Of a stretch of 64,000 nt of DNA, positions 1-35,017 are shown one piece after another. Position numbers and translations under genes: made by a program. The stretch's first letter is position 1. The number at the start of each line of letters is the position of its first letter. The notes beneath the pieces were generated by a model. It was given only the letters and a program-made list of their open reading frames with translations, had not been told where the DNA came from and did no database searches. Location of the stretch: positions 1 through 64,000 of the forward strand of contig SHZM01000009.1 in NCBI GenBank assembly GCA_009692265.1. Direction: 5' to 3'. The DNA is from Gammaproteobacteria bacterium (lineage in GTDB: Bacteria; Pseudomonadota; Gammaproteobacteria; Ga0077536).

Positions 1-417
1 CCGCCGTGAACTTGCTCGTCGATGTTGACATCACGCGCACCATCAGTTGACGACGCGCGCGTACAGCGCGCGACTCCTTAGCGACAGCCAGGTGAGAACC
101 CCATAGAACAGGGGAAAAGACAGTGGGTGGCCTGATTTGGCCATGCGTTGATTGCCTAACCCCTGAAAAACCCCGAAACCGGGAACGGCCGCGCATCGTT
201 CCAGCCTGCGCGCACAGGGGCCATTGGGAGGGGCACAAGTGCGGTCCGCAGTGACGACCGCACTCAACCCTCTAGGCTCGTTGATTATGGGGTGACTAAA
301 AATCAGTCATCGCAAGCCCAAGCCATAGCCAGAATTCTCGAAGAACAGTTCGAGCAGACTCTTGCTCAACATCGCGAAGAACAGAAAATCGTGACCACGC
401 GGGCGCTTCTGTGAAGC

Positions 418-1157: not shown

Positions 1158-1254
1158 TGGCGGAAGAGGTAGGAGTCGAACCCACCGAACCTGCAATTAG
1201 CAGGATCCACCGGATTTGAAGTCCGGGCACCCCACCGGGAGATGTCGCTCTTCC
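1158..1254 (-). tRNA. selC: tRNA-Sec (selenocysteine tRNA), anticodon UCA, 97 nt
   Basis: Reverse complement reads GGAAGAGCG...GGACTTCAAATCCGG...GGTTCGACTCCTACCTCTTCCGCCA with a long variable arm and the ACTTCAAAT anticodon loop. It is near-identical in blocks to E. coli tRNA-Sec and lies 36 bp downstream of selB on the same strand. Confidence 0.93.
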
Positions 1255-1289: not shown

Positions 1290-3272
1290 TCACGTCGATG
1301 CCCCGAAGATATCGGCGACCTTGCGCCTGAGCTTGCGGACTTGGCCTTGACGCATCGTGAGTCCGATTCGGTCGAAATACTCCAGTACTTCGATTGTCAC
1401 GTTTCGCCCGACTTTACTGCGCTCGCGAAACGCGGCGACGGTGAATGAGTCGCCTTGTTCCGCGCCGACTTGTTCGGCCACGGTCGCGAGGCGATAGAGG
1501 GCCGACGGTAAGTAGAAGCGGTACTTGCTGACCTTGATCAGAACGCCGTTATGCGCGGCACGCTCCAGGAACGGCAACAGAATTTGAATCGTAATCTTGA
1601 GCGGCTCGAGCATGTCATGCGCGGCTGGCGCTTGCAGTCCGTGGTGTTCGAGCAGGCTGCGGACGCGCGGTAGCAGGGCGGCGTCCATCGGTGACAATTG
1701 GCCGCTGTGGCCGGCGAGATGCAGTAAGCCGGCGGTCCGGCGTAAAGTGCCTTGCTGTATCAAGTGGACGATTGCCACGCGCATCAGCGACGCGCTCAAG
1801 GTGAGGCGTTGCCGCAGCGCCGCGTCGTTTAGCCCTGCCTGCGCCGGAAATTCCTGGTGATGACTTGTCACCGCAGTGAGAGTCCCGTCAATGATTTCGG
1901 TCCAGCGCGCCGGGGTGAGCGCCAACACGGCACCATTCGCCAGAGCGATTCGTTCGATCGGAATTGCGCGGGTTAAAGCTTCGATTTCATCCGTAGTGAG
2001 ATCCCACACGCGACAAAACCACCGAAAGTCGACACCGTCCGGTTGTTGTGCCAACAACGACGCCAAAGCGGTAGTGGTTTGCGTGGTCGTCAACGCCGCT
2101 AAGGATTGGGCGCGTTTGCTCCGCGAGGTGCTGCGGATTGCGGGACAGGGGTCGAGAATCGTACCGCCGCCCAAGGTGCGGGTTGCGGCTTGATCACGCA
2201 GCACGAAACGATCGCCATGAACCGCGCAGGCGGGTGCTTCGAGTACGAGCATCGCATACCCCTGTGCACCGGGCGCGAGGCCGCGATCACCCAGCAAGCT
2301 CACCCGACCAGGCAAATCGGCGGCCCCAAGATGCACATGCACTGGAGTGCGATCCTGGAGCGCCTTCGCTTCGCTCGCGAGCAAGTGGAGTTGAACACCC
2401 AGGCGGTTCGCACCGCCGCTGAGTGCGGGATCGATTAACCAATCGCCGCGATGGATTTCGACGCGGCGGAGATCGTTGCTGGCAATGTTAATCCCGCAGC
2501 GTTCGCCGGCGCCTGCGCGGGTGACCGCTTGGTTTTGCGCGTGGATCGAACGCACCCGTACTTCGATCCCCGAAGTGGCGAGGAGCAAGCGGTCATCGAC
2601 TGCCACCATGCCCGAATACGCGGTACCGGTTACCACGCGGCCGGCGCCACCGAGGATGAAACTGCGATCGATCGCAAGGCGAAAGTGTCCGCGTTCGGAG
2701 CGCGCCCGCAATTTTCGGGCCGCACTGATTAGCAAGCCGCGGAGTTCCGCCACACCAACACCCGCCGGGGTCGCAAGCGGTACCACGTTCGCCGCAGCCA
2801 ACGAGGTAGTCGCGAGCAAGGCATGGATTTCTTCTCGCACGTTAGTGAGGCGCTCAGGCGAGACGCGATCAATCTTCGTCAAGGCAACCGCGCCCTGCGT
2901 AATCCCGAGCAGTTCGAGAATCGCGAGATGCTCGCGAGTTTGTGGCATCGGACCGTCGTCGGCGGCGATCACGAGTAACGCGAAATCGATACCGGCGACT
3001 CCGGCGAGCATGTTACGCACGAAGCGCTCATGGCCGGGGACATCGATAAAGCCGATGACGTATTCTGCGTCGGCATCATTAATAGTGTGATACGCGAAGC
3101 CAAGATCAATCGTCATCCCGCGGGCTTGTTCTTCGGGCAGGCGATCGGTATCCACGCCCGTTAGCGCTTTAACCAGTAATGTCTTGCCGTGATCGACGTG
3201 TCCGGCGGTGGCAATTATCACGGCGGCAACACGCCGAGCTGGGCGATGAACTCGCGGGGATCTTCGAGGCAA
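1290..3272 (-). CDS. selB: selenocysteine-specific translation elongation factor SelB
   Basis: 660 aa with the GTPase G1 motif AGHVDHGKT near the N-terminus and a long C-terminal winged-helix extension. It sits between selA and tRNA-Sec. The true start is probably downstream of the ORF-track start, which overlaps selA by 55 nt. Confidence 0.88.
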
Positions 3273-4702
3273 CGCAGATCAAACACCAAGGCACCCTGGT
3301 GAATGCGCCCGATCACCGGCATCGGCAACCCGCGAAAGCGAGCCGCCAGTGTTTCGACCGCGCGACTTGAAACGCGCGCGGTGAGGGGGCGCAGGCGTAC
3401 GCCACAGCTCGGCAGTTGCTCCACTGGCAATGCACCGCTTCCAATTTGACTCTTACACGCGACGAGGTCGATCTCCACATTGCTGCGGAGCGCGGTTTGG
3501 AGCGGCGCGAGCACCTCGCGAGCGGTCGCTTCGATCTCGGCTATCGGTCGCGTGAGTAGGCGCAAGGCCGGGATTACTTTTACCGCGCGTGCGGGATCCG
3601 CATACAGTGGTAATACCGCCCCAAGCGACGCCAAGGTGAGTTTATCCACGCGCAAGGCACGGGTCATCGGATTTTTTTTGAGCTTTTTGATCAGATCAGC
3701 GCGGCCCGCGATGATTCCGGCCTGTGGCCCACCCAGCAATTTATCGCCACTGAACATGACGAGATCCGCGCCGTCGCGGATCGCCTCCTGCACCGTCGGT
3801 TCGCGCGGTAACCCAAAGCGTTCGAAATCAAGCAACGTACCGCTGCCGAGATCGACGACAAAGGGGATCTGCGATTTTCGCGCAAGCGCGGCAAGTTCGG
3901 ATTCCGCGACCGCCGCCGTGAACCCTTCGATACGATAATTGCTGGTGTGGATTTTCATGATGAGGCCGGTGCGAGCATCGATTGCGCCTTCGTAATCACG
4001 CAAGTGCACTCGGTTAGTGGTACCGACTTCGCGCATCAGCGAACCGGCGGCGGCCATGACATCCGGGATCCGAAACGAACCGCCGATCTCAACTAATTCC
4101 CCGCGCGAGACGATCACGCCACGCCTTCGTGCCAAGGTATTGAGCACCAGCATAACCGCGGCGGCATTGTTGTTCACGACCGTCGCGGCTTCGGCGCCGG
4201 TTAGTCGCTGCAGCCAGCTTGCCACGTGGTCATCCCGGTCGCCGCGTTTGCCGGCTTCTAGCGAGTATTCAAGATTCGTAGCCTGGGTCGCCACTGCGGC
4301 GATTGCCTTCAGCGCGGCTTCAGGCAATGGTGCACGACCAAGGTTGGTGTGGAGCACTGTCCCCGTGAGATTGAACACCGGGATCAAGCTCGGTTTAGTG
4401 AGCGATCGCAAGTGCTTGGCAGCGGCCACGGTGAGAGACTCCGAGACTGCTTCCACCGAGGATGCCGCGAGGCCGGCTAATGCCTCGCTGCGATAGCGGG
4501 CGGTCGCCGCGCGTAAGGCGGCAACTACCGGCTCGCGTCCATGCCGATGGATTAGAGCCAGCGTGTCAGCGCGCTGCAGTAACCGATCAATCGAGGGGAT
4601 CTGAAATTTAGGCTCGGTCATCGGGGCTCTGCGCACGGCAACGAAGGAACATGGTGGCGCGCCTTGTGTGGAGTTAGGCCGCATTATATTCTCCAGGCTC
4701 AA
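3218..4702 (-). CDS. selA: L-seryl-tRNA(Sec) selenium transferase SelA (start probably at about 4621)
   Basis: Translation contains FSGDKLLGGPQAGIIAG, the PLP-lysine region of selenocysteine synthase, and is about 465-494 aa long. It sits immediately upstream of selB. The MTEPKFQIPSIDRLL start at about 4621 is more plausible than the ORF-track start. Confidence 0.88.
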   Translation of the reverse strand: MSLENIMRPNSTQGAPPCSFVAVRRAPMTEPKFQIPSIDRLLQRADTLALIHRHGREPVVAALRAATARYRSEALAGLAASSVEAVSESLTVAAAKHLRSLTKPSLIPVFNLTGTVLHTNLGRAPLPEAALKAIAAVATQATNLEYSLEAGKRGDRDDHVASWLQRLTGAEAATVVNNNAAAVMLVLNTLARRRGVIVSRGELVEIGGSFRIPDVMAAAGSLMREVGTTNRVHLRDYEGAIDARTGLIMKIHTSNYRIEGFTAAVAESELAALARKSQIPFVVDLGSGTLLDFERFGLPREPTVQEAIRDGADLVMFSGDKLLGGPQAGIIAGRADLIKKLKKNPMTRALRVDKLTLASLGAVLPLYADPARAVKVIPALRLLTRPIAEIEATAREVLAPLQTALRSNVEIDLVACKSQIGSGALPVEQLPSCGVRLRPLTARVSSRAVETLAARFRGLPMPVIGRIHQGALVFDLRCLEDPREFIAQLGVLPP

Positions 4703-4721: not shown

Positions 4722-5306
4722 GTGGCAGTGTCGCGGATCCCCTTAGTCGAGCCCGATGGCGCATCGCCCGAGGTCAAGGCAGCTTACAAACAATTCGAAG
4801 AAATCGGTTTTCCGATCATGAACGTCATGAAGATGTTCGCGAACAATGGCAAGGTGCTGCAGGGCTTTGTGCAGATCGCGCAGGCGCTTTACGTTGCGCC
4901 GCGGATCTCACCACGATATCGCGAGCTAGCGTATCTGCGAGCCTCGCAGGTCAATTCCTGTCATTACTGAATTCCCACCCATGTGATGCTCGGTCTGAGT
5001 GTCGGCTTGACGAAGGCAGAAATGTCGATGATGGGCGATGCGGAGCATTGCGAGACCTTTGATGCCAAGGACCGTCTCGTTCTGCGGTATTCAGAAACGG
5101 TCACGCGCGAGAATCGTGTCGACGACGCGTTGTATGCCGAACTGGCAGTAAATTTCACGCAAGAAGAATTGGTCGATCTCGCGTTGACCGCCGCGTTCTC
5201 ATCGTTCGTGAATCGAATCCATGCGACCTTTCGCACGGATCTGGATGAATCCACGATCGCGCAAGTCGGAGACGCAGTCACCTGCGCGCTACCCCCGCGA
5301 CGTTAA
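4722..5306 (+). CDS. AhpD-core / carboxymuconolactone decarboxylase-family selenoprotein (peroxidase-related), in-frame UGA (Sec) at 4968-4970
   Basis: ORFs 4722..4970 and 4983..5306 are in the same frame and separated only by TGA. The read-through translation is ...RELAYLRASQVNSCHY-U-IPTHVMLG..., matching the AhpD core motif E-X11-C-X-(H/Y)-C-X3-H with the second Cys replaced by Sec. It is divergent from the selA-selB-selC cluster. The start is GTG at 4722 or 4728. Confidence 0.8.
4985..5003 (+). promoter_or_regulatory. candidate bacterial SECIS hairpin (stem GAUGCUC / GAGUGUC, loop GGUCU)
   Basis: A 7-bp stem with two G-U pairs starts 15 nt after the UGA. The apical loop GGUCU puts G-U at +26/+27 from the UGA, resembling the E. 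coli fdhF SECIS loop AGGUCU. Confidence 0.5.
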
Positions 5307-7154: not shown

Positions 7155-7856
7155 TCACGGGCGCGCCAACGCTCGCACGCAGGCGAACAAGCCGAGCAGA
7201 ATCACCGTTACAAAATAGCCAAAATCGCTGAGGTACAGCGCGCCCACCGAAAACGGGGTGAAATGCGCGATAAGCGACGCGTTCACCGCCAGGACATCGA
7301 AGGGGTCGGGCAATAAATTGCCGAGCGAATCGCCGACCCAGAGCAGCAAAAACAGGCCCATCGAGCCGATGGCGGCGACGATTTGATTGCTGGTCAATGC
7401 CGACAGCCACAGCCCGAGGGCGACTAACGCCGCCGCCAACAAGCTCAGTCCGAGGTAACCGCTGTACACGGGGCCCCAATCAGGCTCGCTGAAGTATTGC
7501 AGCACCGCGGGATAGACCAGAGTCAAGCTCAGCATGGTCAAAATCACCGCCATGCAAGCGCCGAATTTCGCGGCGACGATGGCGAATTCCGCCGCCGGCG
7601 TTGAAAGCAAAAGTTCCAAGGTGCCGTGCCGGCGTTCTTCAGCGAACGCGCGCATGGTGATCACGGGTACAAACACCAGCAACAACACCGCCGCTTGGTA
7701 CATCACACGCACCAGCGACGCCGATTGACTCACGAACAACCAGCTCGTAAAGGTGTAGCCCATTAACAAGATGAACACCGTAATCACCACTGCGGCGATC
7801 GGCGAGATAAACAAGGCTTTGGTTTCCTTGGCCAACAAGACGCGAAACGAACCCAT
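7155..7856 (-). CDS. ABC-2 type transporter permease
   Basis: 233 aa with six predicted transmembrane segments. Its start (7856) overlaps the stop of the upstream ATPase, indicating translational coupling. Confidence 0.7.
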   Translation of the reverse strand: MGSFRVLLAKETKALFISPIAAVVITVFILLMGYTFTSWLFVSQSASLVRVMYQAAVLLLVFVPVITMRAFAEERRHGTLELLLSTPAAEFAIVAAKFGACMAVILTMLSLTLVYPAVLQYFSEPDWGPVYSGYLGLSLLAAALVALGLWLSALTSNQIVAAIGSMGLFLLLWVGDSLGNLLPDPFDVLAVNASLIAHFTPFSVGALYLSDFGYFVTVILLGLFACVRALARP

Positions 7857-8788
7857 TAGCGCTCCGAGCCGGTGAGGGCGAGAAACGCGGCTTCGAGATC
7901 CAGGTGGATCTCGCGTAGTTCGAGTAGCGCATAGCCGGCGGCGAGCACCGCTGGTGCGATCCCTGGTAGAAACTCCGCCGATTGCAAGGTCAACTCGTAA
8001 TTATTCGTAAAGCCGCCTGGACTCCGCGCTTGCACGTTGGTCACGCCGGCGATCAGGGTCAGCAGGGCTTCGGCCTTCTCCAGATGCAGGCCTTGAATCC
8101 GTAAAATCACCCTAGGCGCGGTCGCGGCGACCCGCTCCGTCAACAATTTCCCATTCAATAACACCGCGACCCGGGTCGCGATGCGTTCGATTTCGCCGAG
8201 CACGTGGGAGGTAATCAATATTGTCTGATCAGGCGCGAGCCGTCGCACTAATTCGCGGACTTCGATGATTTGGTGCGGATCGAGACCGTTCGTCGGCTCA
8301 TCAAAAATCACCAGCGGCGGTCGGTTAATCAACGCCTGAGCAATCGCGACGCGCTGACGATAGCCGTGCGAGAGTTTACCGATGGCCCGGCGCGCCACTG
8401 ACCCCAGGTTCAGTTCTTCAATCACTCGCGCGAGTCCACTGCGCAGCGCCGAGCCGCGCAGACCCTTGAGTCCCCCCATGAACGACAGGAACTCGCTGAC
8501 CAGCATCTGTGGGTAAAGGTTCGCGTCTTCGGGCACATAACCGAGACAGCGCCGCGCTTCGGCACTGTCAGTCGCGTGATCAAAACCTAGGATCGTGACC
8601 GAGCCCTCGCTGGGCGCGAGGTAGCCCGCGAGAATTCGCAGGATCGTACTTTTGCCGGAGCCGTTAGGGCCTAAGAGTCCGAGTATTTCGCCCTGCATAA
8701 TGTTGAAAGAAACATTATCTACCGCGCGCTGAGCACCATAGTCTTTGGCGAGCGAGCGGACTTCGACGATTGGCGCGGCGGTTTGCAT
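7856..8788 (-). CDS. ABC transporter ATP-binding protein
   Basis: Walker A GPNGSGKST, the signature LSHGYRQR and Walker B LVIFDEPTNGLD are all present. Confidence 0.9.
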   Translation of the reverse strand: MQTAAPIVEVRSLAKDYGAQRAVDNVSFNIMQGEILGLLGPNGSGKSTILRILAGYLAPSEGSVTILGFDHATDSAEARRCLGYVPEDANLYPQMLVSEFLSFMGGLKGLRGSALRSGLARVIEELNLGSVARRAIGKLSHGYRQRVAIAQALINRPPLVIFDEPTNGLDPHQIIEVRELVRRLAPDQTILITSHVLGEIERIATRVAVLLNGKLLTERVAATAPRVILRIQGLHLEKAEALLTLIAGVTNVQARSPGGFTNNYELTLQSAEFLPGIAPAVLAAGYALLELREIHLDLEAAFLALTGSER

Positions 8789-8920: not shown

Positions 8921-9802
8921 TTATTCGTAGAAATCCGGTGCCTTCTTCATCGTTTTGAACGCATCGGGATCGTGCGCTGTGAAGAAGTTCGCGTTCTCGG
9001 TCGCCATCATGTATCGGATCCATTCGTAACCGCGCATGATCCCGGCGGGATCATAGGCCAGTACGAGATTCGGCGGGATGCTGTTGAGGACATTTTCGCG
9101 GAAGTAGGCCGCGTCGCCCGTCAGGATAATCGTGCCGGTCTTTGGTAGTCGTACGACCAACATCTGGCTGCCCTTGGTGTGACCGACTGAACGCTTGACC
9201 ACCACGCTGCCATCACCGAACAGATCGTGATCGCCATCGAGCCGTAGCAGTGGCATCGCCCCCGGCGTCGTGACCCCAAGCCCGGAACGTAAGGCGTTCA
9301 CGTCCCCTGGAATAAAGGAGCCCGCGAACGGTTCGTCGGGGAAAAATGCAAAGCCGATTTCATCGTTTTGGATCACCACGGTTGAATGCGGAAATTTACC
9401 GACATTGCCACCATGGTCCAGATGCATGTGGCTGACGACGACATACTTGATGTCATCCGGTTTCAAACCGACCTTGCCAAGCTGGCCTTCAATAGAGACT
9501 TCGGGAGTCATCATCGGGTCGAGCGCTTCGGCGTGCTTACCCCAGTAGCTGCGATCGGTGATCAGCTTGTCGTTGTTACCAGTATCGAACAGCACGTTGC
9601 CCTTTGGATGTTGGATCAGGAACATGCCGACCGGCACTCGGATCTTCGGTTCCATCGGGCCGAAGTTCTGCAATATTCCCTTGCCCAGTTGCAGGCTCCC
9701 GGAATTCAGCACGTACAACTTCATTCCAGCCGGTGACTCGGCGCTGGCGACTTGCATGAATCCGGCGACCAGCGCCAGTACGGCGATGCCATTACGAAAC
9801 AT
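8921..9802 (-). CDS. secreted metallo-beta-lactamase-fold hydrolase
   Basis: N-terminal signal peptide (MFRNGIAVLALVAGFMQVASA) and the HMHLDHGGN zinc-binding motif (HxHxDH). Confidence 0.7.
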   Translation of the reverse strand: MFRNGIAVLALVAGFMQVASAESPAGMKLYVLNSGSLQLGKGILQNFGPMEPKIRVPVGMFLIQHPKGNVLFDTGNNDKLITDRSYWGKHAEALDPMMTPEVSIEGQLGKVGLKPDDIKYVVVSHMHLDHGGNVGKFPHSTVVIQNDEIGFAFFPDEPFAGSFIPGDVNALRSGLGVTTPGAMPLLRLDGDHDLFGDGSVVVKRSVGHTKGSQMLVVRLPKTGTIILTGDAAYFRENVLNSIPPNLVLAYDPAGIMRGYEWIRYMMATENANFFTAHDPDAFKTMKKAPDFYE

Positions 9803-9887
9803 TAGTACTCCCCCCGTTTAAGAAATTTGACTTTCAACCGCCCGCATTATGGTCCGAAATGACAGCGTTATGCACCCTCAGCTCAGT

Positions 9888-10052
9888 GCAAATTTGTTCT
9901 CGACATCTTCCCACTTTAAAAAAAGGGGGACCGAGGGGGATTTATCTTAATACGGCGCACCGCAAATCCCCCCTACCCCTTTTTCAAAGCGGGGAAACAA
10001 CAACGCAGCACTGTCGTTGAAGTTTCTCGGAAAATTTCCGAGAACAAATCAG
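9888..10052 (+). repeat. MITE-like repeat element, copy A (about 165 bp, with terminal inverted repeats)
   Basis: Near-identical in reverse complement to 34745..34915. Terminal inverted repeats are aaatttgttctcg and cgagaacaaat; flanking imperfect direct repeats are ccctcagctcagtgcaa and ccctcagctgcagtgcaa. It is intergenic between the metallo-beta-lactamase-fold gene start and the MFS gene stop. Confidence 0.75.
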
Positions 10053-10076
10053 CCATGACCCTCAGCTGCAGTGCAA

Positions 10077-11258
10077 TTAAGCAGCGAACCGGCGGGTTCT
10101 CGTCACCGCAAGCCCAAGGGTCGCGAACGCCGCGAAGGCAGCGCCCAGCGCGAATGTCGCGGCTGGCCCGTAATGATCCCAGGCCAGGCCCGCGAGCACA
10201 CTGGCCACTAGCACTGCTATTCCGCTCATGAGATTGAATACCCCGAACGCGGTGCCAAGTAAGTCGGGTGGCGCCGCATCGGCGACGAGCTTGCTTAACA
10301 GGCCCTGGGTCAAGCCCAGGTGGATTCCCCACAGTGCCGCGCCGAGCAAGACCATCGCCGGATTAGCCGCGATCGCCAATACCCCGTCGGCAGCGATTAG
10401 AAACAGCAGCCCGATGATTAATAAGCCGCGCGGTTTTAGGCGATCGGCCGCAACCCCGGCTGGGTAGGCCACCGCAGCATAGACTACGCTCATCACGACT
10501 AACACGCTCGGTGCCCACGCGAGATTAAGCCCGACGCTGTGCGCGCGAAGGAGCAGAAAAGCCTCGCTGAATCGCGCCAGGGTGAACACTATCCCGAGTG
10601 CGACCACCCACCAGTAGCGCCGAGTTAAGCGAGTTGCCGCGTGCCAGAGGATCGATTTTCCGGTGGAGAGTGGGCGCGCAGCGGGCTCCGCGACACCGAA
10701 ACAGAGGACCGCGACCGACAACAGCGCCGGGATCACGGCAGCCCACAGTGCGAGCTTGAGATCGTTCGCAAGCATCAGCATCAACCCGATCGCGAGCAGT
10801 GGTCCGATGAATGCGCCGACCGAATCGAGCGCCTGACGTAGTCCAAAGGCCGCGCCGCGCTGTGTAAGTGGCGTCACTTCTGCGATCAGTGCATCGCGCT
10901 GCGCGCCGCGGATCCCCTTGCCGATCCGATCGAGCAGGCGCGCGGTAAACACCCATTCCACACTCGCCGCGAGCGGAAAAATCGGTTTCGACAGCGCTGC
11001 CATGCCGTAGCCGATGACCGCAAGTAATTTACGTTTGCCGAGATAATCACTGAGCACACCGGAGAACACTTTGACCATCTGTGCAGTCGCCTCCGCGGTC
11101 CCTTCGATGACACCGATCACGGCCATGCTCGCGCCCAGGCTGTTCGCAAGGTACAGCGGCAACAAGCTGTGCACGAGTTCCGAGGAAGCGTCCATGAACA
11201 GGGACACGAAACCGAGTGCCCACACGGTGCGGGGCAGGCGGGCATGGTTCGCAGTCAC
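10077..11258 (-). CDS. MFS transporter
   Basis: 393 aa with 12 predicted transmembrane segments and typical MFS loop motifs (GKRKLL..., DRIGKG). Confidence 0.75.
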   Translation of the reverse strand: MTANHARLPRTVWALGFVSLFMDASSELVHSLLPLYLANSLGASMAVIGVIEGTAEATAQMVKVFSGVLSDYLGKRKLLAVIGYGMAALSKPIFPLAASVEWVFTARLLDRIGKGIRGAQRDALIAEVTPLTQRGAAFGLRQALDSVGAFIGPLLAIGLMLMLANDLKLALWAAVIPALLSVAVLCFGVAEPAARPLSTGKSILWHAATRLTRRYWWVVALGIVFTLARFSEAFLLLRAHSVGLNLAWAPSVLVVMSVVYAAVAYPAGVAADRLKPRGLLIIGLLFLIAADGVLAIAANPAMVLLGAALWGIHLGLTQGLLSKLVADAAPPDLLGTAFGVFNLMSGIAVLVASVLAGLAWDHYGPAATFALGAAFAAFATLGLAVTRTRRFAA

Positions 11259-11333: not shown

Positions 11334-14300
11334 TTACACACGTCGAAGTTTCTTTCGTTGCAATAAAAAAAACGCAGCTGGGATTACAAATAAGGACAGC
11401 AGCGGTGCCGTCACCATACCGCCAACCATCGGTGCGGCGATACGGCGCATGATTTCAGAGCCCGTTCCAGTCCCGAGCAGGATCGGCAGGAGACCGGCCA
11501 GGATCACCGCCGCCGTCATTGCCTTCGGACGCACGCGGCTGACGGCACCTTCGCGGATCGCCGCTTTCAACTGTTCGATGTCGATGGTGATTCCGCTCGC
11601 CACCTGTCGTTCTAGTGCCTGTCGCAAGTACCACAGCATTACGATTCCAAACTCGGCGGCGACCCCGGTCAACGCGATAAACCCAACTCCCGTTGCCACT
11701 GACCTCTGATAGTCGAGGCTATATAACAACCACAGTCCACCCACCGACGCGCACGGAATCGTCAGCATGATTACCAACGCTTCGGAGACCCGCGCGAAAA
11801 CCACCAACAGCAACACAAAGATGATCGCGATCACGGCGGGTGCGACCCATTGCAGTCGCGCGGTGGCGCGCGCCAGGTATTCATATTGGCCCGAATAAGT
11901 CACTGTCACTCCGACCGGCAGCGGAACTTGCGCCGCGATCCCGGTCCGAAGATCGCGCACGACCCGTCCGAGATCTGAACTATTCACGTCGACATACACC
12001 CATCCCGAGAGTCGCGCGTTCTCGCTTCTGATCTGCGGTGGCCCGTCGTTGATTTTCACCGTTGCCACCGCGCCCAAAGTCAGGAGCTGCCCGTTGGAGG
12101 CGACAAACGGCAATTCGCGCAATCGCGTGAGCGAGTCTCGCAATTCGCGTGGGTAGCGTACGTTGATCGGAAATCGCGCGAGGCCTTCAACGGTCTGGTC
12201 GATGTTCTCACCGCCGACCGCCGCCGCGATAATGGTCTGGATCTCCGCGACAGTCAGACCGTACTGCGCGATCTGCTGGCGATCGATTTCAATATCGAGA
12301 TAGCGCCCGCCGGTGAGTCGTTCGGCCAATGCCGAACTCACCCCGGGCGTGACCTTTGCGATCTTTTCGATCGCACGCGCGGTGCGTTCGATGGTGACGG
12401 GATCAGGTCCGGATATTTTCACCCCAATCGGGCTTTTGATCCCGGTGGCGAGCATGTCGATCCGATTACGGATAGGCGGCACCCATAAGTTCGACAGACC
12501 CGGCACCTGCACGCGGCGATCCAACTCCGCGATGAGCGCGTCAAGGGTCAAGCCCGGGCGCCAGGCCTCGCGCGGTTTCAGTTTGATCGTCGTTTCGAAC
12601 ATTTCGAGTGGCGCGGGATCGGTCGCGGTCTCGGCGCGTCCGGCTTTGCCAAACACATGTTCCACTTCGGGCATTGCTTTGATCATTCGATCGGTGCGTT
12701 GCAACAACTCGCTTGCCTTGGCGGCCGAAAGACCCGGTAGCGCGGTCGGCATGTACAGAAGATCGCCCTCATCGAGCGCCGGCATGAATTCAGATCCCAG
12801 GTGACGCCAGGGATAGATCGCCGATAGCAACGCGAGCCCCGCCAGCAGCAAAGTGGTTCGCGGCCACCGCAGAACTGCATTCAGCAATGGCAGGTACAGG
12901 GCTACCAGCAATACGCTCAGCGGATTGTCTGCTTCGCGCGGAATGCGGCCACGGATCACATAGCCCATGAGCACCGGCGCAAGGGTGACCGACAAGCACG
13001 CGGCTGCCGCCATCGCATACGTTTTGGTATACGCCAGAGGTCCAAACAAGCGACCTTCCTGCGCCACGAGCGCGAATATCGGAGTAAACGAGATGGTAAT
13101 CAACAGCAGGCTAATAAATATTGCCGGCCCCACCTCGCTCGCCGCGTCGCCGATCACCCGCCAGCGGGTAGCGCTATCTAAGGTGTTCGCGGGATGCGCG
13201 TGCTGCCAGTGCTCTAAATGCTTGTGGGCGTTCTCGAGCATGACAATCACCGCGTCGACCATCGCGCCCACCGCGATCGCGATGCCACCCAGCGACATGA
13301 TATTCGCGGTGATCCCCTGATACTTCATCACGATGAAGGCCGCGAGCACGCTAAGCGGCAGGAGGATGATCGCAACCAACGCCGAGCGCAGATGAAACAG
13401 AAAAATCACGGTCACCGCCATCACAACTGCGAACTCCTCGATGAGCTTATTGGTTAGGTTCGCGACCGCGCGGTCGATCAACTCCGAGCGATCATAGACC
13501 GGCACGATCTCCACGCCTTCCGGTAGACCTGACGTGAGTTCCGCTAGTTTCTTGCGTACAGCTGCGATCGTGGCGCGCGCGTTACCCCCGGCGCGCAGCA
13601 ACACCACCGCGCCGACCGTTTCACCTTCGCCGTCGAGCTCCGCGATCCCTCGGCGCATTTCCGGCCCGCGTTGAATGATCGCGACATCGGCCAGGACAAT
13701 CGGGATCCCATTGCTGGCGGTGCCCAGGGGCACCGCGCGGAGATCAGCGATGCCGCGCAGATAAGTGCTCGCGCGAACCATGTATTCCGCTTCGGCGATT
13801 TCGATCACGCCGCCGCCAGTTTCGCGATTAGCCGCCTGAATCGCCGCAATCACGCGCGCAATCGGCATTCCATAGGACGCGAGCTTCATGGGATCGAGCA
13901 GCACCTGATACTGCTGCACCATGCCGCCGATCGTCGCGACTTCGGCGACCTCGGGCAGCCCCGACAATTCGAATTTTAAAAACCAGTCTTGCAGCGCGCG
14001 TAGCTGTCCAAGATCATGACGACCCGAGCGATCGACCAGCGCATATTGATAAATCCAGCCAACACCCGTCGCGTCCGGTCCCAGGTTCGATTTCGCCGTA
14101 GGCGGCAGTCGTGACTGGACTTGATTCAAGTACTCCAGCACGCGCGAGCGTGCCCAGTACAAGTCCGTCCCGTCTTCGAACAGCACATAGACAAACGAAT
14201 CGCCGTAGAACGAATACCCACGGACCGACTTCGCGCCAGGCACTGACAACATCGTGGTGGTCAGCGGGTAGGTCACCTGATTTTCGACAATTTGGGGCGC

Positions 14301-14468
14301 CTGTCCCGGCAAGCTCGTGCGAATGATTACCTGCACATCGGAGAGATCCGGCAGCGCGTCGATCGGCGTTGAGCGAACGGCCCAGATCCCCCAGGCCGCG
14401 AGGAAAAGGCTCAACGTGAGCACGATCGCTCGTTGCTCAATCGATGCTCGAATAAGGCGCGCGATCAT
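11334..14468 (-). CDS. cusA: Cu(I)/Ag(I) efflux RND permease CusA (HME-RND)
   Basis: 1044 aa. Long stretches are near-identical to E. coli CusA, for example [27 protein letters not shown] and [20 protein letters not shown]...[28 protein letters not shown]. Confidence 0.85.
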
Positions 14469-15703
14469 GGTGGGGTCTCCACATCAACCTGGCCGCGTAA
14501 ACTCGCTTCGGAATCGAACAGAAACTGACCGGACGCGACGATCCGATCACCGGCCTGTAGACCGGTACTCACTTCGATCTCGCTAGCGCCCTCATGACCG
14601 AGTTGAATCGAGACCGCGCGAAAGTGTCCGGCACTTTCTTCGCGCATGACCAAGGTGCGGGTGCCGGTACGAATAACCGCCTCGCTCGGCACCAGCACGG
14701 CGGGCTCAGAGTTGGTCGACGCAATCATCACGCGCGCTGACATGCCTGCCTTGAGCCGTCGCTCGCGGTTGGGCAGTTCGATCCGCACCCGCAAAGTGCG
14801 GGTAGCAGGATCGGTACTCGCAAGGATCGCCGCAATCGTGCCGTTGAGGGGTGTCGCCGGAAACGCCGCCAGTTCGGCGCGAACCACTTGTCCGACCTCC
14901 ACGGCTTCGGCGGCCGTTTCGGGCACTGCTATCTCCAGCCACATCGGATCAAGCCCAGTGATCGTGGCGAGGGTCACCCCAGCGCCCAGGCTCATGCCCG
15001 CGCGCACCTCCAGCGTGGTCAGTACCCCCGTGAGGGGTGCGCCAATAGTAAGAACAGGTTGTGTTTTCCCCGTGGCGACGACCGTGTCGATCAGTGCAGA
15101 CGGCATGCCGAGTCGCTGCAAACGACTACGCGCCGCGGCACTTAAACTTGAATCACCGAGGGCATACAGCGCGAGTAATTCTTGTTGAGCCGCCAGCCAT
15201 TCCGGCACCAGCAGATCGGCCAGTGGGGCGCCTTCGGCGATCTCATCACCCGGTGCGCGCGCGTATACCCTCTCGACGTAACCGGCAGTGCGAGTTTGCA
15301 CGATCGCCACGTCGCGGGCGTTGAACGCCAGCTGACCGGAGGCGATGATTTCGCGCGACAAGTTTCCCGTACGTACGGTCACCACGCGCACCCCAAGATT
15401 TTGCGCCACGACGGGGTCGATCCGAAGATTTCCCTTCTCGGCGCTATCCTGCTCGTCGTCTGCGTACTTCGGCACCAGCGCCATGTCCATGAACGGCGAT
15501 TTTCCTGGGCGATCAAAACGCTGGGTGGGCACCATTGGGTCGTACCAGTACAGCACTGTACGCGCGTTGTGCGGGGTCGGTGTCGCCTCGAATAATTTCG
15601 CACTCGAGTGCCACGCGCTCCAGTACCCGATACCGATCCCAAGGATGAGCGCTACGCCGATCGCAACACCAAGCCAGGAGTTACTCGTGCGCATCGTGTT
15701 CAC
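14465..15703 (-). CDS. cusB: efflux RND periplasmic adaptor (CusB/CzcB family)
   Basis: 412 aa with an N-terminal membrane anchor and a membrane-fusion-protein beta-barrel/lipoyl fold. It is translationally coupled to cusA by a 4-nt overlap. Confidence 0.75.
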
Positions 15704-16964
15704 CTCCCTCGTAGGTGTAATACAAGTCAGCGGCTGAAAGAGTCACCGCAGCGGTTGCGTCGAGCAGCTCTAAACGGGTTTCGATCAAGGTGCCGCGGGT
15801 GTCCAGTAGGGTCTCGAGATCAATACTTCCGGCAGCATAGGCGGCAGCGGCCAGTGTCGCGCGGCGCTTTGCCAACGGCAGCCGTTGGGTTTGATAACGC
15901 ACCAAGCGCTGCCGATCGCGCGCATGCCGCACCAAGCCACGTTCAAGCGCGGCCGCGTGGTCGCGCAACATTTGGGCGCGCTCGGCTTCGAGTGCGGCTA
16001 AGTCCTGGAGACGGGCAGCAATGAGCGGATCCTGGCGGTGCTCCGCAAACAATGGCAGGTCGATCGAGACTTCGGCCGAGATCATGTCCCCATACTCGGG
16101 GCCCCGATGCGCGTAGGCGACTTCGAAATCCCAATCGGGGCGCTTATCCGCCGCGGCCGCGGTCATCGCAGCTCGCGCTTCGTCGAGGCGGCTTGCGAAT
16201 TCCAGCAGCTCAGGATGCTGCTGCACATGCGCGCGCAGGTGCGCAGGCTCCACTTCGATGTGCGGCGGCGAGACGCTCAACGGGAGTTCCGCCGCGGCGC
16301 CGATCAGGCGTGCGAGTTCAACGCGCGCTTGGTCGCGTTCGGCCGCCAAGGCTTCATGCCGATCGGCTAGTTCCAAGGTGTCGATTTCTGGCGCGAGGGC
16401 AGCCACTGGATCAAGCGCTCCGGCCGCCACCTGACCCGGCACGGTATGCGAGGCCCGCGTATTCTCCTCGCTCAAGTCGCGCAACGCCGCGAGCTTGCGC
16501 TCGGCGTAGTACACCTCTAACCAGGCCAGTGCCGCATCGCGCCGCAACTTCAGCCGTGTAGTCAACGCCGTCGCGTTCGCGGTGCCGATTTTCGCTTCGG
16601 CGCCGTGTCGCCGTGCCTCCCGTTTCGCACGATTAGTCCACGCCTGCTGAATACCGACCTTCTGCATGGTCATGAAGTCGCGACTCAACGAGAAACTATC
16701 GCGACCGGTAATCGGGAGATTGTCGAGGCCAACGACGAGTTTCGGATCCGGCAGCGCGTCGGCCGGGATCGCCTGCGCGCGTAGCGCCGCGATCCGCGCG
16801 GTGTCGGCCTGTACCGCCGGGGTGTCATGCGTCGCGAGCGAAAGCGCTTGTTCAAACGATAATTGTGCATCTGCCCACGTCGGGGCGAGGGCCAGAAGGC
16901 CCGTGAAGATCCATGCCAACATGGCTGAACTCCCATTGTTCAGCGTGCGCAGCGCGCACCTCAC
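15681..16964 (-). CDS. cusC: outer-membrane efflux protein (CusC/TolC family)
   Basis: 427 aa with a signal peptide and two TolC-type repeat halves rich in coiled coil (Ala/Arg/Leu/Glu). It lies directly upstream of cusB. Confidence 0.7.
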   Translation of the reverse strand: MRCALRTLNNGSSAMLAWIFTGLLALAPTWADAQLSFEQALSLATHDTPAVQADTARIAALRAQAIPADALPDPKLVVGLDNLPITGRDSFSLSRDFMTMQKVGIQQAWTNRAKREARRHGAEAKIGTANATALTTRLKLRRDAALAWLEVYYAERKLAALRDLSEENTRASHTVPGQVAAGALDPVAALAPEIDTLELADRHEALAAERDQARVELARLIGAAAELPLSVSPPHIEVEPAHLRAHVQQHPELLEFASRLDEARAAMTAAAADKRPDWDFEVAYAHRGPEYGDMISAEVSIDLPLFAEHRQDPLIAARLQDLAALEAERAQMLRDHAAALERGLVRHARDRQRLVRYQTQRLPLAKRRATLAAAAYAAGSIDLETLLDTRGTLIETRLELLDATAAVTLSAADLYYTYEGGEHDAHE

Positions 16965-20676: not shown

Positions 20677-21036
20677 ATGGGTGCGACCGCTATCCCCGTC
20701 GATAAGCAACCGCTGATTTATGCGCGCTTCACGCATCGATTGCGCGAGCACATTAAAACGCTAATCACCCCCGCGCTGATTGAAGAACATCGGCTGAAAC
20801 CGCTCGGGCAGGGCAGTGATGACTTGGAACGGGTCAAAAATTTCCTGAGCCGCCCGCCGAGTTATGGCCTCTACGCGCGAGTGCCAATGCGTGAATGGCA
20901 GCTCATTCGGTTGCCGATTAAAGCCAGCCAAGCGCCGAAGCCAATCGATTCGGTGATTTATCGCGACGAAGCCACGGCTTATCACGCGGCGTTTCTCAAA
21001 CATCTCGACGACTTAATGGCGAGGGGCGCCCGATGA
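20677..21036 (+). CDS. hypothetical small protein, possible small subunit partner of the downstream amidohydrolase-like enzyme
   Basis: 119 aa, translationally coupled to the 750-aa gene by an ATGA overlap. Confidence 0.3.
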   Translation: MGATAIPVDKQPLIYARFTHRLREHIKTLITPALIEEHRLKPLGQGSDDLERVKNFLSRPPSYGLYARVPMREWQLIRLPIKASQAPKPIDSVIYRDEATAYHAAFLKHLDDLMARGAR

Positions 21037-23285: not shown

Positions 23286-23397
23286 CGGCGCGACTCGAAG
23301 CGGTCATTTTTTTGAGAGCAGAACGCGACCACCGTAAATCCGTACAACGCATGCTGTATTGGATGCACGATCAACCTTGGATAAGCAGGAGGAACCT

Positions 23398-24177
23398 ATG
23401 ATCCGTTTCGAATTCGCTTTACGCCGTAAACCCGGCATGACGCGCGCGGAATTTCAGCAGTACTGGCGCGTGGTACACGGCCCGCTCGTCGCCAAGCACG
23501 CGAGTACCTTGAATATTCATCGCTACGTCCAACTTCACACCCTTGACGATCCGATAAACGACGCGCTGGCCGAGGCACGCGGCGGCATGGAGCCAGCCTA
23601 CGATGGAGTGGCCGAGTTGTGGTGGAAGACGCCAGAGGAACTTGAGGCGTTTAGCAGCGCGGCCGGCGAGGCCGCGGGTCGGGAATTGTTGGAAGACGAG
23701 AAGAAGTTCATCGACCTGCCCAATTCCCCGCTGTGGTTCGCCTACGAGTATCCGCAGGTGAATCCGTCCGAGGACATCATCGCGCGCGAGCACGGACCGC
23801 TGGTCAAGCTGTTCTTCTGCTTACGCCAATTGTCGACCCAGTCGCTCGAAGCGGCCCAACTTTATTGGCGGACTAACCATGGCCCGCTAATTCGCGGCGT
23901 AGCTCCTGGCTTTCGGATGCAGCGCTACCTGCAGGTCCATTACTGCGAAGACATGCCCGTCATCAGCGCGGTTCGCGCGGCACGCGGGACTGTTACAGCG
24001 CCCTACGCCGGGCACGCAGAGGCGTGGTTCAACCGCGCCGATCTGATGACCATGGCCACTATTCCCGAAGCGAATCGCGCGATGGAAATTGCGATCGCGG
24101 ATGAACGGAAATTCATCGATTTCCGCCGCTCCGCGATGTGGATCGGCAAGGAGCATACCTTCATCGATAGACGATGA
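23398..24177 (+). CDS. tandem EthD-domain protein (dimeric alpha/beta barrel)
   Basis: Two repeats of about 125 aa each begin with the R-KPGM--EEF--YW---HGPLV signature. AGGAGG ribosome-binding site precedes the ATG at 23398. Confidence 0.6.
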   Translation: MIRFEFALRRKPGMTRAEFQQYWRVVHGPLVAKHASTLNIHRYVQLHTLDDPINDALAEARGGMEPAYDGVAELWWKTPEELEAFSSAAGEAAGRELLEDEKKFIDLPNSPLWFAYEYPQVNPSEDIIAREHGPLVKLFFCLRQLSTQSLEAAQLYWRTNHGPLIRGVAPGFRMQRYLQVHYCEDMPVISAVRAARGTVTAPYAGHAEAWFNRADLMTMATIPEANRAMEIAIADERKFIDFRRSAMWIGKEHTFIDRR

Positions 24178-24223
24178 TCGAAAACGTTGCCGAATTACCC
24201 GCGCGCCAAGAGGAGTACACAAC

Positions 24224-33645: not shown

Positions 33646-34744
33646 CTACAAAGCCACTTTGGCGGAACGTTCGATTGTCTGCACCGCCATGCCGGCGACC
33701 AGGCGGTGCACACCCGCACTGACCACGCGGTCGTCTACGCTAAGCGGACCGCTGACCAACACCGCGTCATCGAAATAGCGCAACACTTCGACCGCAACCG
33801 CTTCGACTGTTTCGCCCTCGGCCCCGCGCACAATTCGCCACACGGTGGGGCGTTCCGGACCGAGGCTGCCAACAGCGGAGGCGGGGAGTCGAAAGCTATC
33901 CCGACTCGCGGCCGCACTAACGATGACCGAGGCGGTGGCGCCGAGCTCGACGTGTTCGTCGGGCGCGAGGAGGGTAATACGTGCGCGATGCGTGCGGGTG
34001 GCGCGATCGGCTTGCGGATCGAGATCGCGGATCTTTCCTTGATAACGCTGCCCTGGGTTGCTCAAGAGTTCAACTTCAAGCCGTTCGGCCTGGCGCAGCA
34101 AGTCGAGGTGTCCTTCCGGCACGCTGACATGCACCTCGCGCTCGCCGTCAGCCGCGAAGCGCACGACCGGTTGCCCGGCGGTGACGACGTTGCCCGGCTC
34201 GGCCAGGATCTGAGTCACCACGCCTGCCGCATCGGCGGTTAGAGAAGTGTAATGCGATTGGTTGTCGGCTAGGCTGTACGCCGCCTGCGTCTGGTCGCGG
34301 CGAGCCTGTGCCAGGCGCGTCGTGTTCATCCGCAGATCGAGCGGCGATTGTCCGACGAAGCCACCTGCGCGCAATTCTCGATAGCGCTGCTCCTCAGCCC
34401 GGGCTAGACCCAAATCTGCCTCGGCGGCAGCCACCGTGGCGCGGGCCGCGGCGAGGTTCAAACGCGCGTCCTCGGGATCGAGCACCGCGAGCACGGTGCC
34501 GGGCTCGACATGCGCGCCCATGTCGACGTGGCGCGCGGCGATTTTGCCGGCTATGCGGAACGCAAGATCAACTTCAACTCGTGCGTGAATCGATCCCGGC
34601 AGGATTTGCACATCGCTAAGCCCTGATAACGCCTGTGGTGCTTCGACAACGACCGGGCGTGGGCGCGGCACTGGCGACTCCGAGTGGGTGCAGGCGGTCA
34701 GCACGAAAAGCGCGGCGAGTGCGAGGCGGTGGCGATGCCGATAG
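33646..34744 (-). CDS. efflux RND periplasmic adaptor lipoprotein (start codon unresolved)
   Basis: Lipobox LAALFVLTAC followed by a membrane-fusion-protein fold. The ORF-track N-terminal extension (to 35058) runs through the MITE-like element and is not real. No canonical start was found just upstream of the lipobox. Confidence 0.6.
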
Positions 34745-34915
34745 CACGACTGGTTTGTTCTCGGAAATTTTGCGAGAAGTTTCGACGACCGTGCTGCGTG
34801 GTTGTTTCCGCCCGTTGAAAAAGGGGGGGTGGGGATTCGCGGTGCGCCGTATAGGATAGGTCCCCCTCGGTCCCCCGTTTTCAAAGGGGCAAGATGTCGA
34901 GAATAAATTTGCCCT
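34745..34915 (-). repeat. MITE-like repeat element, copy B (inverted relative to copy A)
   Basis: Reverse complement matches 9888..10052 over nearly the full length. It is flanked by a perfect 11-bp direct repeat gatgccgatag (34734-34744 and 34916-34926), and has terminal inverted repeats tttgttctcg and cgagaataaa. Confidence 0.75.
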
Positions 34916-35017
34916 GATGCCGATAGGGCATGGCCTTCTTCAATCCGAATAGGAACGGTATGGTAATGGAATTCGGCGACGAATAGCCAAACCCGACCGC
35001 GCGCCGAGATACGTGTT

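What the first reader, a model, noticed from the sequence alone, without database searches (positions are those of the whole stretch)
9876..10078. Previously unannotated MITE-like element (copy A) with terminal inverted repeats and flanking direct repeats
A roughly 165-bp non-coding element (gcaaatttgttctcgacatcttccc...aaaaaagggggaccgaggggga...ccccctacccctttttcaaagcgggg...tttccgagaacaaatcag) has 11-13-nt terminal inverted repeats and is flanked by the imperfect direct repeat ccctcagct(c/g)cagtgcaa. A second copy occurs 25 kb away in opposite orientation (34745-34915). The internal palindrome ttctcggaaaatttccgagaa and G/C-rich complementary blocks predict a strongly folded RNA if transcribed.
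Basis: seen in the sequence. Interest (0 to 1): 0.6.

Follow-up and report, generated by a model that had tools for sequence, protein, structure and literature searches.

The report
Small non-coding jumping DNA element
Two diverged copies of a roughly 173-bp non-coding transposable element (a MITE) were inserted into this uncultured gammaproteobacterium's chromosome, one between two genes and one inside the first codons of an efflux-pump gene; this is an ordinary kind of mobile DNA, though the family itself is not in any collection I could search.

Summary

- **The two copies.** Copy A (9884-10057, +) and copy B (34745-34916, -) are 84.5% identical. Each ends in a 19-bp imperfect inverted repeat; the consensus of the four ends is CAGGGC[AT][AG]ATTTGTTCTCG.
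- **Target-site duplications.** Each copy is flanked by a perfect 10-bp duplication: ACCCTCAGCT at A and CTATCGGCAT at B.
- **Both are insertions, not ancestral sequence.** A relative whose lactonase-like protein is 94% identical has the same gene order. It lacks exactly the element plus one duplication copy (88-nt spacer there, 274 nt here). Copy B lies inside codons 2-5 of an RND efflux adaptor gene. Removing it restores a 367-aa lipoprotein precursor of the same length as its homologues.
- **Likely parent.** The CAGGG-type 19-bp ends and 10-bp duplication match published features of the ISAs1 insertion-sequence family, so mobilisation in trans by such a transposase is the most likely mechanism. 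That step is inferred. No transposase and no further copies were found in the window or in any searchable collection.
- **No RNA family.** Rfam has no match, and the two copies face opposite ways relative to local transcription.

Verdict: a new member of a known kind. Interest is modest.

The parts
9874..9883 (.). Target-site duplication of copy A, left copy (ACCCTCAGCT)
   Evidence: It is identical to 10058-10067. Relative L128 has only one related copy, at its empty site.
9884..10057 (+). MITE copy A, 174 bp, 47% G+C (window 59%). It lies between the stop of an MFS transporter gene (10077-11258, -) and the start of a secreted metallo-beta-lactamase-fold (AHL-lactonase-like) gene (8921-9802, -).
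   Evidence: Sequence. Aligned with copy B. Absent from the orthologous spacer in L128 and L130. Flanking genes identified by Pfam in the table.
9884..9902 (+). Left terminal inverted repeat of copy A (CAGTGCAAATTTGTTCTCG)
   Evidence: It matches the reverse complement of 10039-10057 at 15/19 positions.
10039..10057 (-). Right terminal inverted repeat of copy A (read inward: CATGGCTGATTTGTTCTCG)
   Evidence: Its first 10 nt match the ISAs1-family ISArsp11 inverted repeat CAGGGCTGAT at 9/10 positions (PMC6305408).
9911..9992 (.). Central G/C-run hairpin. An A-run precedes it and a T-run follows it on both strands, giving the shape of a bidirectional intrinsic terminator but with a large loop.
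   Evidence: Folds: -30.6 kcal/mol (z -2.9) on + and -40.9 kcal/mol (z -3.9) on -. The simple terminator scan did not call it, because it only accepts loops of 3-8 nt.
10024..10044 (.). Subterminal palindrome TTCTCGGAAAATTTCCGAGAA. It consists of the inner part of the right inverted repeat plus an inverted third copy of the TTCTCG motif.
   Evidence: 0 matches expected by chance. It is conserved in copy B at 34758-34778.
10058..10067 (.). Target-site duplication of copy A, right copy (ACCCTCAGCT). It starts 10 nt downstream of the MFS gene's stop codon.
34735..34744 (.). Target-site duplication of copy B (CTATCGGCAT on the - strand), the copy attached to the body of the adaptor gene
34745..34916 (-). 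MITE copy B, 172 bp, 55% G+C, inserted within codons 2-5 of the RND efflux periplasmic adaptor (MFP) gene
   Evidence: Deleting 34745-34926 restores a 367-aa ORF.
34917..34926 (.). Target-site duplication of copy B, the copy attached to the orphaned start of the gene
34917..34931 (-). Orphaned original start of the adaptor gene (ATG CCC TAT CGG CAT). It is now 185 nt upstream of the gene body and out of frame with it. From this ATG translation gives MPYRHQGKFILDILPL and then stops.
   Evidence: L149 has ATGCCTCGTCGGCATCGCC at its intact start.
33646..34744 (-). Body of the interrupted adaptor (MFP) gene, still an open frame. It is followed by an intact 1023-aa RND pump gene (30563-33634, -).
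   Evidence: The database gene call for this organism is a 341-aa protein lacking the signal peptide (P0121).

Best explanation
The element is a MITE, a 172-174-bp non-autonomous DNA transposon with no coding capacity.

**What is shown**
- Each copy carries 19-bp imperfect terminal inverted repeats. The consensus of the four ends is CAGGGC[AT][AG]ATTTGTTCTCG.
- Each copy is flanked by a perfect 10-bp target-site duplication.
- Both copies arrived by insertion after this lineage split from its sampled relatives.
- Copy A landed in the 90-nt spacer between an MFS transporter gene and a lactonase-like gene.
- Copy B landed inside codons 2-5 of an RND efflux adaptor gene. It separates the native start codon and ribosome-binding region from the signal peptide and shifts the frame.

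**What is inferred**
- A DDE transposase supplied in trans binds the terminal repeats, excises or copies the element, and inserts it at a 10-bp staggered cut. Repair of the stagger creates the duplication.
- That transposase is most probably of the ISAs1 family, which has 14-22-bp inverted repeats starting CAGGG and a 10-bp duplication.
- The internal hairpin, with an A-run on one side and a T-run on the other, probably acts as an orientation-independent transcription terminator. It would then uncouple the lactonase-like gene from the MFS gene at copy A, and silence or weaken the adaptor-pump operon at copy B.
For: **Structure.** The two copies are 84.5% identical. The inverted repeats match at 15/19 and 13/19 positions, and both 10-bp duplications are perfect.

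**Empty site at copy A.** L128 (lactonase-like protein 94% identical) and L130 (82%) keep the MFS-then-lactonase gene order, with spacers of 88 and 100 nt against 274 nt here. Deleting the element plus one duplication leaves 90 nt that align collinearly with L128.

**Gene interruption at copy B.**
- Deletion restores MPYRHRHRLALAALFVLTAC..., a 367-aa protein.
- That is the length of the 10 aligned homologues and of most of the top 40 hits, and the lipobox cysteine falls at position 20 as in all of them.
- L149 has ATGCCTCGTCGGCATCGCC at its start, against the reconstructed ATGCCCTATCGGCATCGCC here.
- The gene call on record for this organism is truncated to 341 aa.

**Non-coding and not a known RNA.**
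- The longest internal ORFs (53 and 62 aa) have no credible homologues among 5.8 billion and 1.84 billion proteins.
- Rfam has no match.
- The two copies face opposite ways relative to local transcription.

**ISAs1 link.**
- PMC11946415 describes ISAs1 as having a 14- to 22-bp terminal inverted repeat starting with CAGGG and a 10-bp direct repeat.
- ISArsp11 (ISAs1 family) has 19-bp repeats CAGGGCTGATGCAAAGTCG and a 10-bp direct repeat (PMC6305408).
- The four-end consensus here begins CAGGGC. The two right ends (CATGGCTGAT and CACGACTGGT) give the consensus CA-G-CTG-T, which agrees with CAGGGCTGAT at all seven positions where they concur. The observed right ends match it at 9/10 and 7/10 positions.

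**Composition and reality of the insertions.** The element is more A+T-rich than the window, 47-55% against 59% G+C. Both insertions are present in independent assemblies.
Against: - Only two copies are documented. No further copy turned up anywhere I could search:
  - 18-mer scans of the metagenome and genome-representative collections;
  - four viral-contig scans;
  - plasmid BLASTN.
- The rest of the source genome could not be searched, so multi-copy status is unproven.
- No transposase of any family is present in the 64-kb window (Pfam; gene tables). No parent insertion sequence with matching ends was found.
- Only one of the four ends begins exactly with CAGGG. The others read CAGTG, CATGG and CACGA.
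- Beyond position 10 the similarity to ISArsp11 is weak (10-12 of 19 overall).
- IS4-family elements of the IS231 group also have 5'-CA ends and 10-12-bp duplications (from my own knowledge).
- The terminator role rests on predicted folding only. Copy B's hairpin is barely better than shuffled sequence (z -1.6 and -1.8), and no promoter-like site was found in either copy.
Confidence: 0.85

Rival explanations
1. The element is a MITE, but its parent and mobilising transposase belong to the IS4 family (IS231-like group) or to another DDE family that makes a 10-bp duplication, not to ISAs1.
For: - All four ends start 5'-CA and the duplication is 10 bp. From my own knowledge, IS231-group IS4 elements have CAT-type ends and 10-12-bp duplications, and they spawn MITE-like derivatives (MIC231).
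- One end here reads CATGGC.
- ISAs1 transposases are easily mistaken for IS4. PMC11946415 reports Frankia genes first identified as IS4 that turned out to be ISAs1 family.
Against: - The four-end consensus is CAGGGC, the ISAs1 hallmark.
- A 19-bp repeat length with exactly 10 bp of duplication at both sites matches ISArsp11 precisely.
- No IS4-like end sequence was compared directly.
Confidence: 0.2
2. The repeat is a conserved cis-regulatory RNA or small-RNA gene that has been duplicated, and it acts through its strong secondary structure.
For: - Copy A folds far better than shuffled sequence on both strands (z -6.5 and -7.3).
- A central hairpin is retained in both copies.
Against: - There is no Rfam match, even at permissive thresholds.
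- The two copies have opposite orientation relative to the flanking transcription units.
- The sequence is absent from the orthologous spacer in relatives.
- Copy B interrupts a coding sequence.
- Perfect 10-bp duplications flank both copies.
- Copy B as a whole folds no better than chance (z -1.0).
Confidence: 0.03
3. It is a structured interspersed repeat of the REP/BIME, ERIC or Correia type, or an IS200/IS605-type palindrome-associated element. Such elements spread without a fixed-length target duplication.
For: - It is small, intergenic at copy A, highly palindromic and terminator-like.
Against: - Both copies carry a perfect duplication of the same length (10 bp) but different sequence. 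From my own knowledge, REP, RAYT-associated and IS200/IS605-type elements make none, and Correia elements duplicate TA.
- The ends are a classical inverted repeat with 5'-CA termini.
Confidence: 0.03

Closest known systems
ISAs1-family insertion sequences (for example ISArsp11, ISAs1, and the Frankia Francci3_2330/2941 elements)
   Same: - The terminal inverted repeats are 19 bp, within the family's 14-22 bp range.
- The consensus of the four ends starts CAGGGC.
- The target duplication is exactly 10 bp at both insertions.
   Different: - There is no transposase gene. The element is 172-174 bp, against about 1.2-1.5 kb for the insertion sequences (ISArsp11 is 1,306 bp).
- Three of the four ends deviate from CAGGG by one or two bases.
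- The inner half of the repeat (ATTTGTTCTCG) is unlike that of ISArsp11 (GCAAAGTCG).
- No cognate full-length element is known.
Bacterial MITEs in general (for example Correia/NEMIS of Neisseria, ERIC, RUP, MIC231, and the Coxiella and Microcystis MITEs)
   Same: - It is short and non-coding.
- It has terminal inverted repeats and target-site duplications.
- It is strongly self-complementary.
- It inserts in spacers and gene starts, with likely effects on transcription.
   Different: - There is no sequence similarity to anything in the searched collections.
- The 10-bp duplication differs from the TA of Correia elements.
- Only two copies are documented, whereas classical families have tens to hundreds.
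IS231-derived MIC231 elements (IS4 family) of the Bacillus cereus group
   Same: - They are non-autonomous derivatives bounded by 5'-CA-type inverted repeats.
- They make 10-12-bp duplications and are mobilised in trans. This comes from my own knowledge and was not tested here.
   Different: - The host phylum is different.
- MIC231 elements often carry passenger genes.
- The end sequence here fits CAGGG (ISAs1) better than CATGCCC (IS231).

Membership tests
MITE (miniature inverted-repeat transposable element) | Short (under about 600 bp) and without a transposase gene | tested here: met
   The copies are 174 and 172 bp. The longest internal ORFs are 53 and 62 aa and have no credible homologues.
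MITE (miniature inverted-repeat transposable element) | Terminal inverted repeats | tested here: met
   The repeats are 19 bp, matching at 15/19 positions (A) and 13/19 (B), with a perfect 11-nt core in A.
MITE (miniature inverted-repeat transposable element) | Target-site duplication of constant length and site-specific sequence | tested here: met
   Both copies have perfect 10-bp duplications of different sequence: ACCCTCAGCT and CTATCGGCAT.
MITE (miniature inverted-repeat transposable element) | Presence/absence polymorphism (empty sites in relatives) | tested here: met
   For copy A, the spacers in L128 and L130 lack the element. For copy B, every homologue has an uninterrupted 367-aa gene, and the reconstructed start matches L149.
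MITE (miniature inverted-repeat transposable element) | Multiple dispersed copies in the genome | tested here: inconclusive
   There are two copies in 64 kb. The rest of the genome is not in any searchable collection.
MITE (miniature inverted-repeat transposable element) | A cognate autonomous element with the same ends that supplies the transposase | not testable with these tools
   There is no transposase in the window (gene tables). The end-pattern scan of viral contigs was empty. The genome and metagenome scan quotas were already spent on the 18-mer.
ISAs1-family derivative | Inverted repeats of 14-22 bp (PMC11946415) | tested here: met
   The repeats are 19 bp, the same length as those of ISArsp11.
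ISAs1-family derivative | Inverted repeats begin with CAGGG | tested here: inconclusive
   Copy B's left end is CAGGG exactly. The other ends read CAGTG, CATGG and CACGA. The majority consensus of the four is CAGGGC.
ISAs1-family derivative | 10-bp direct target repeat | tested here: met
   The duplication is 10 bp at both insertions, as in ISArsp11 and the Frankia elements.
ISAs1-family derivative | Mobilised by an ISAs1-family DDE transposase | not testable with these tools
   No transposase from the source genome is available, so this needs genome-wide data or an experiment.
Correia/NEMIS-type MITE | TA target duplication and 26-bp inverted repeats | tested here: not met
   The duplications are 10 bp and are not TA, and the repeats are 19 bp. 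The family's features are taken from my own knowledge.
Described structured RNA family (Rfam) | Covariance-model match at or near the gathering score | tested here: not met
   The only window hit at gathering threshold is tRNA-Sec, elsewhere in the window. At E up to 10 the element gives only far-sub-threshold miRNA and cobalamin noise.

The most novel reading that the evidence does not exclude
This could be the founding example of a MITE family derived from ISAs1-type insertion sequences. I found no such MITE in the papers I searched.

- **Built-in terminator.** Its internal module would be a portable, orientation-independent terminator.
- **Shared module.** Its left arm, C(C/T)TCCCCCTT-loop-AAGGGGGACCGAGGGGGATTT, recurs in unrelated phage-like contigs.
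- **Rewired rather than killed operon.** Copy B creates a TTGA stop/start overlap (TGA at 34881-34883, in-frame TTG at 34882-34884). That overlap could allow termination-reinitiation into the adaptor gene's frame, so the efflux operon would be rewired rather than killed.
- **Consistent with intact genes.** This would explain why the adaptor body and the pump gene are still intact.
Probability: 0.15. Interest if true: 0.45.

Novelty: new member of a known kind. Interest (0 to 1): 0.3.

Why it matters
- **Annotation.** The adaptor (MFP) gene at 33646-34744 is recorded in databases as a 341-aa protein without a signal peptide (P0121). It is in fact a 367-aa lipoprotein gene split by a MITE. The adaptor-pump efflux operon of this uncultured gammaproteobacterium is therefore probably silenced or altered.
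- **Strain typing.** The element marks recent genome change between close relatives, and its presence or absence could be used to type strains in metagenomes.
- **ISAs1 biology.** If the ISAs1 link holds, it gives a small, defined substrate for a transposase family whose mechanism is little studied: two 19-bp ends plus a subterminal palindrome.

None of this changes how MITEs are understood.

Tried and rejected
**Searches for further copies (all negative)**
- An exact 18-mer from the best-conserved right end (AAAATTTCCGAGAACAAA) was scanned against JGI metagenome contigs (91 loci) and against the GTDB species-representative genomes (34 loci). BLASTN and nhmmer showed that every hit was an 18-25-nt chance match. 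Both scan quotas are now spent, and the source genome is evidently not among the representatives.
- Four viral-contig scans were run. The central 16-mer gave 17 loci, none with the full element. The end pattern gave 0 loci. The left end plus subterminal sequence gave 9 chance hits. An internal 19-mer gave 0.
- BLASTN of the element against 72,556 plasmids found nothing at E 1e-5 and only 20-39-nt noise at E 10.

**Fishing for copies through spurious gene calls**
- The 53-aa ORF of copy A shared no words with any of the 5.8 billion proteins.
- The 62-aa frame through copy B gave a single weak hit among 1.84 billion proteins (E 3.7e-4, multi-stretch), which I do not consider credible.

**Walking out of the window**
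- Look-ups by exact protein returned no extra DNA.

**Hypotheses rejected**
- A riboswitch, small RNA or cis-regulatory RNA. There is no Rfam match, the copies face opposite ways relative to transcription, the site is empty in relatives, and copy B lies inside a coding sequence.
It is a 10-bp duplication plus a terminus-like stretch in the pre-existing flank.
- An outward-facing or internal sigma-70 promoter. The consensus scan found none.
- A transposase partner inside the window. Pfam on all unannotated large ORFs found none.

**Literature**
- The IS-family review tables (FEMS Microbiol Rev 2014) could not be retrieved. The ISAs1 features are therefore cited from PMC11946415 and PMC6305408.
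Full report
**1. The observation**

A second copy lies about 25 kb away in inverse orientation. With the boundaries refined as below, copy A is 9884-10057 (174 bp, + orientation). Copy B is 34745-34916 (172 bp, - orientation). They are identical at 147 of 174 aligned columns (84.5%) with two 1-nt gaps. A profile built from both copies finds no third copy in the window. The palindrome TTCTCGGAAAATTTCCGAGAA is present in both copies and is not expected by chance. G+C is 47% in A and 55% in B, against 59% for the window.

**2. Ends and flanks**

Read inward, the four termini are:

| End | Sequence |
|---|---|
| A left | CAGTGCAAATTTGTTCTCG |
| A right | CATGGCTGATTTGTTCTCG |
| B left | CAGGGCAAATTTATTCTCG |
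| B right | CACGACTGGTTTGTTCTCG |

- Left and right match at 15/19 positions in A and 13/19 in B. The majority consensus of the four is CAGGGC[AT][AG]ATTTGTTCTCG.
- Immediately outside the termini, copy A is flanked by ACCCTCAGCT on both sides (9874-9883 and 10058-10067).
- Copy B is flanked by CTATCGGCAT on both sides (34917-34926 and 34735-34744, read on the - strand). Both duplications are perfect 10-mers of different sequence.
On the left that stretch is the element's own terminus. On the right it is flank that was largely there before insertion.

**3. Both copies are insertions**

*Copy A*
- The genes around it are an MFS transporter (10077-11258, -) and a secreted metallo-beta-lactamase-fold, AHL-lactonase-like protein (8921-9802, -).
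- Homologues of the lactonase-like protein come from uncultured Gammaproteobacteria.
- The contig with the closest homologue (L128, 94% identity) and one from an NCBI MAG (L130, GCA_964555355.1, 82%) keep the MFS-then-lactonase order. Their spacers are 88 and 100 nt, against 274 nt here.
- The alignment shows that L128 lacks exactly the element plus one copy of the 10-mer. Deleting 9884-10067 from the window leaves a 90-nt spacer that aligns collinearly with L128.

*Copy B*
- On the - strand the sequence reads ...GAAGAAGGCC ATG CCC TAT CGG CAT | element | (G)TG CTA TCG GCA T CGC CAC CGC....
- Deleting the element plus one 10-mer restores ATG CCC TAT CGG CAT CGC CAC..., which is MPYRHRHRLALAALFVLTAC..., in a 367-aa ORF.
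- The 10 homologues I aligned, and most of the top 40 hits, are 367 aa. In that alignment the reconstructed N-terminus aligns without gaps and the lipobox cysteine falls at position 20.
- L149 starts ATGCCTCGTCGGCATCGCC, 16/19 identical to the reconstructed start.
- The protein on record for this organism is a 341-aa truncation that starts after the signal peptide (P0121).
- The element therefore sits inside codons 2-5 of an RND efflux adaptor gene, which is followed by an intact 1023-aa pump gene.

*Independent assemblies*
- Both insertions are present in other assemblies of the same organism: L001 and L002 for copy A, L148 for copy B, and the gene spacing in ERZ1305449.

**4. What it is not**

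- Rfam gives nothing at gathering thresholds and only noise at E up to 10.
- Relative to the local direction of transcription (the - strand at both sites), copy A is traversed from right end to left end and copy B from left end to right end. A strand-specific RNA function is therefore unlikely.
- The internal ORFs have no homologues.
- No transposase is encoded anywhere in the window (gene tables).

**5. Mechanism**

- *Shown.* The inverted repeats, the fixed-length duplications, the empty site and the gene interruption are the signature of cut-or-copy-and-paste insertion by a DDE-type transposase acting in trans, which is what defines a MITE.
- *Which transposase (inferred).*
  - Published descriptions give the ISAs1 family 14-22-bp inverted repeats starting CAGGG and a 10-bp direct repeat (PMC11946415).
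  - ISArsp11 has 19-bp repeats CAGGGCTGATGCAAAGTCG and a 10-bp direct repeat (PMC6305408).
  - The element matches in repeat length (19 bp), in duplication length (10 bp, twice) and in terminal consensus (CAGGGC).
  - The right ends match CAGGGCTGAT at 9/10 and 7/10 positions.
  - I put about 0.55 on ISAs1 specifically, about 0.2 on an IS4-family (IS231-like) parent, and the rest on other or unknown families.
- *Timing (inferred).*
  - Suppose the 15.5% divergence between copies had accumulated after insertion at neutral rates.
  - Then two perfect 10-bp duplication pairs would be expected only about 4% of the time (0.925^40).
  - The two copies therefore more likely descend from source copies that had already diverged, which implies further members somewhere in the lineage.

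**6. Likely consequences (inferred from folding only)**

- The centre of the element forms a G/C-run hairpin bracketed by an A-run and a T-run, so a stem followed by a T-run appears on either strand. In copy A the energies are -30.6 and -40.9 kcal/mol, with z of -2.9 and -3.9. In copy B, z is -1.6 and -1.8.
- At copy A this would terminate MFS transcripts 71 nt upstream of the lactonase-like gene's start.
- At copy B, translation from the native ATG stops after 16 codons. The hairpin lies between the native promoter region and the gene body.
- The only in-frame candidate starts are a TTG at 34884 without an obvious ribosome-binding site and two GTGs downstream of the signal-peptide start. The adaptor is therefore probably not exported normally.
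- The TTG overlaps the TGA of the short upstream ORF (TTGA), which could in principle permit reinitiation. That is speculative.
- No sigma-70-like promoter was detected in either copy.

**7. Limits**

- Every attempt to find further copies or the parent element failed.
- Copy number and the identity of the transposase therefore remain open.

**8. Verdict**

This is a well-supported MITE of a family not represented in the collections searched, probably ISAs1-related. It is a new member of a known kind. Its local importance is for annotating one efflux operon, and its general interest is modest (0.3).

Noticed in passing
L132 ~7805-7860 (-), L133 ~5015-5060 (+), L139 ~11350-11560 and ~3029 (-), L147 ~1-50 (-); window 9906-9945 and 34857-34894: The MITE's left-central module recurs in five unrelated IMG/VR contigs as C(C/T)TCCCCCTT, a 4-6-nt loop, then AAGGGGGACCGAGGGGGATTT(T). 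These contigs have neither the MITE's ends nor its right half. In L139 the module is part of an 81-nt tandem repeat of 2.6 copies. Rfam has no match. The C-run can pair with either G-run. I do not know what the module is.
   Followed up: partly
window 34881-34884 (- strand): The short ORF left at the orphaned adaptor-gene start ends in a TGA that overlaps an in-frame TTG of the adaptor reading frame (TTGA). This arrangement could support termination-reinitiation.
   Followed up: no
window 10068-10076 versus 9884-9891: At copy A the flank just beyond the right duplication (GCAGTGCAA) mimics the element's left terminus (CAGTGCAA), which extends the direct repeat to 17/18 nt. The T at terminus position 4 is unique to this end, and the empty-site relative has GCGTCGCAA there. 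This could be chance, a target preference for terminus-like sequence, or local gene conversion.
   Followed up: partly
window 1162-1254 (-), 1290-4702 (-): A selenocysteine tRNA (64 bits) lies next to the selB and selA genes.
   Followed up: no
window 11334-16964 (-): A heavy-metal-type RND efflux operon lies between the DEAD-box helicase gene and the MFS gene. It comprises an outer-membrane factor, a CusB-like adaptor with a heavy-metal-binding domain, and an AcrB-family pump. In relative L130 the helicase gene is directly followed by the MFS gene, so this operon is a lineage-specific gain or loss.
   Followed up: no
window 23359-24600 (+): There are tandem EthD-domain coding repeats, seen as direct repeat D1 at 23425 and 24251 (71% identical over 65 nt). 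They sit beside an N,N-dimethylformamidase-like gene (21033-23285).
   Followed up: no
L003, L016, L023, L026, L031, L036, L049, L056, L058, L064, L069, L076 (metagenome contigs): About a dozen unrelated metagenome contigs share the same 20-mer, GGAAAATTTCCGAGAACAAA, with the MITE's right end and nothing more. It is presumably a conserved segment of some unrelated gene, and it inflated the chance hits of the 18-mer scan.
   Followed up: no
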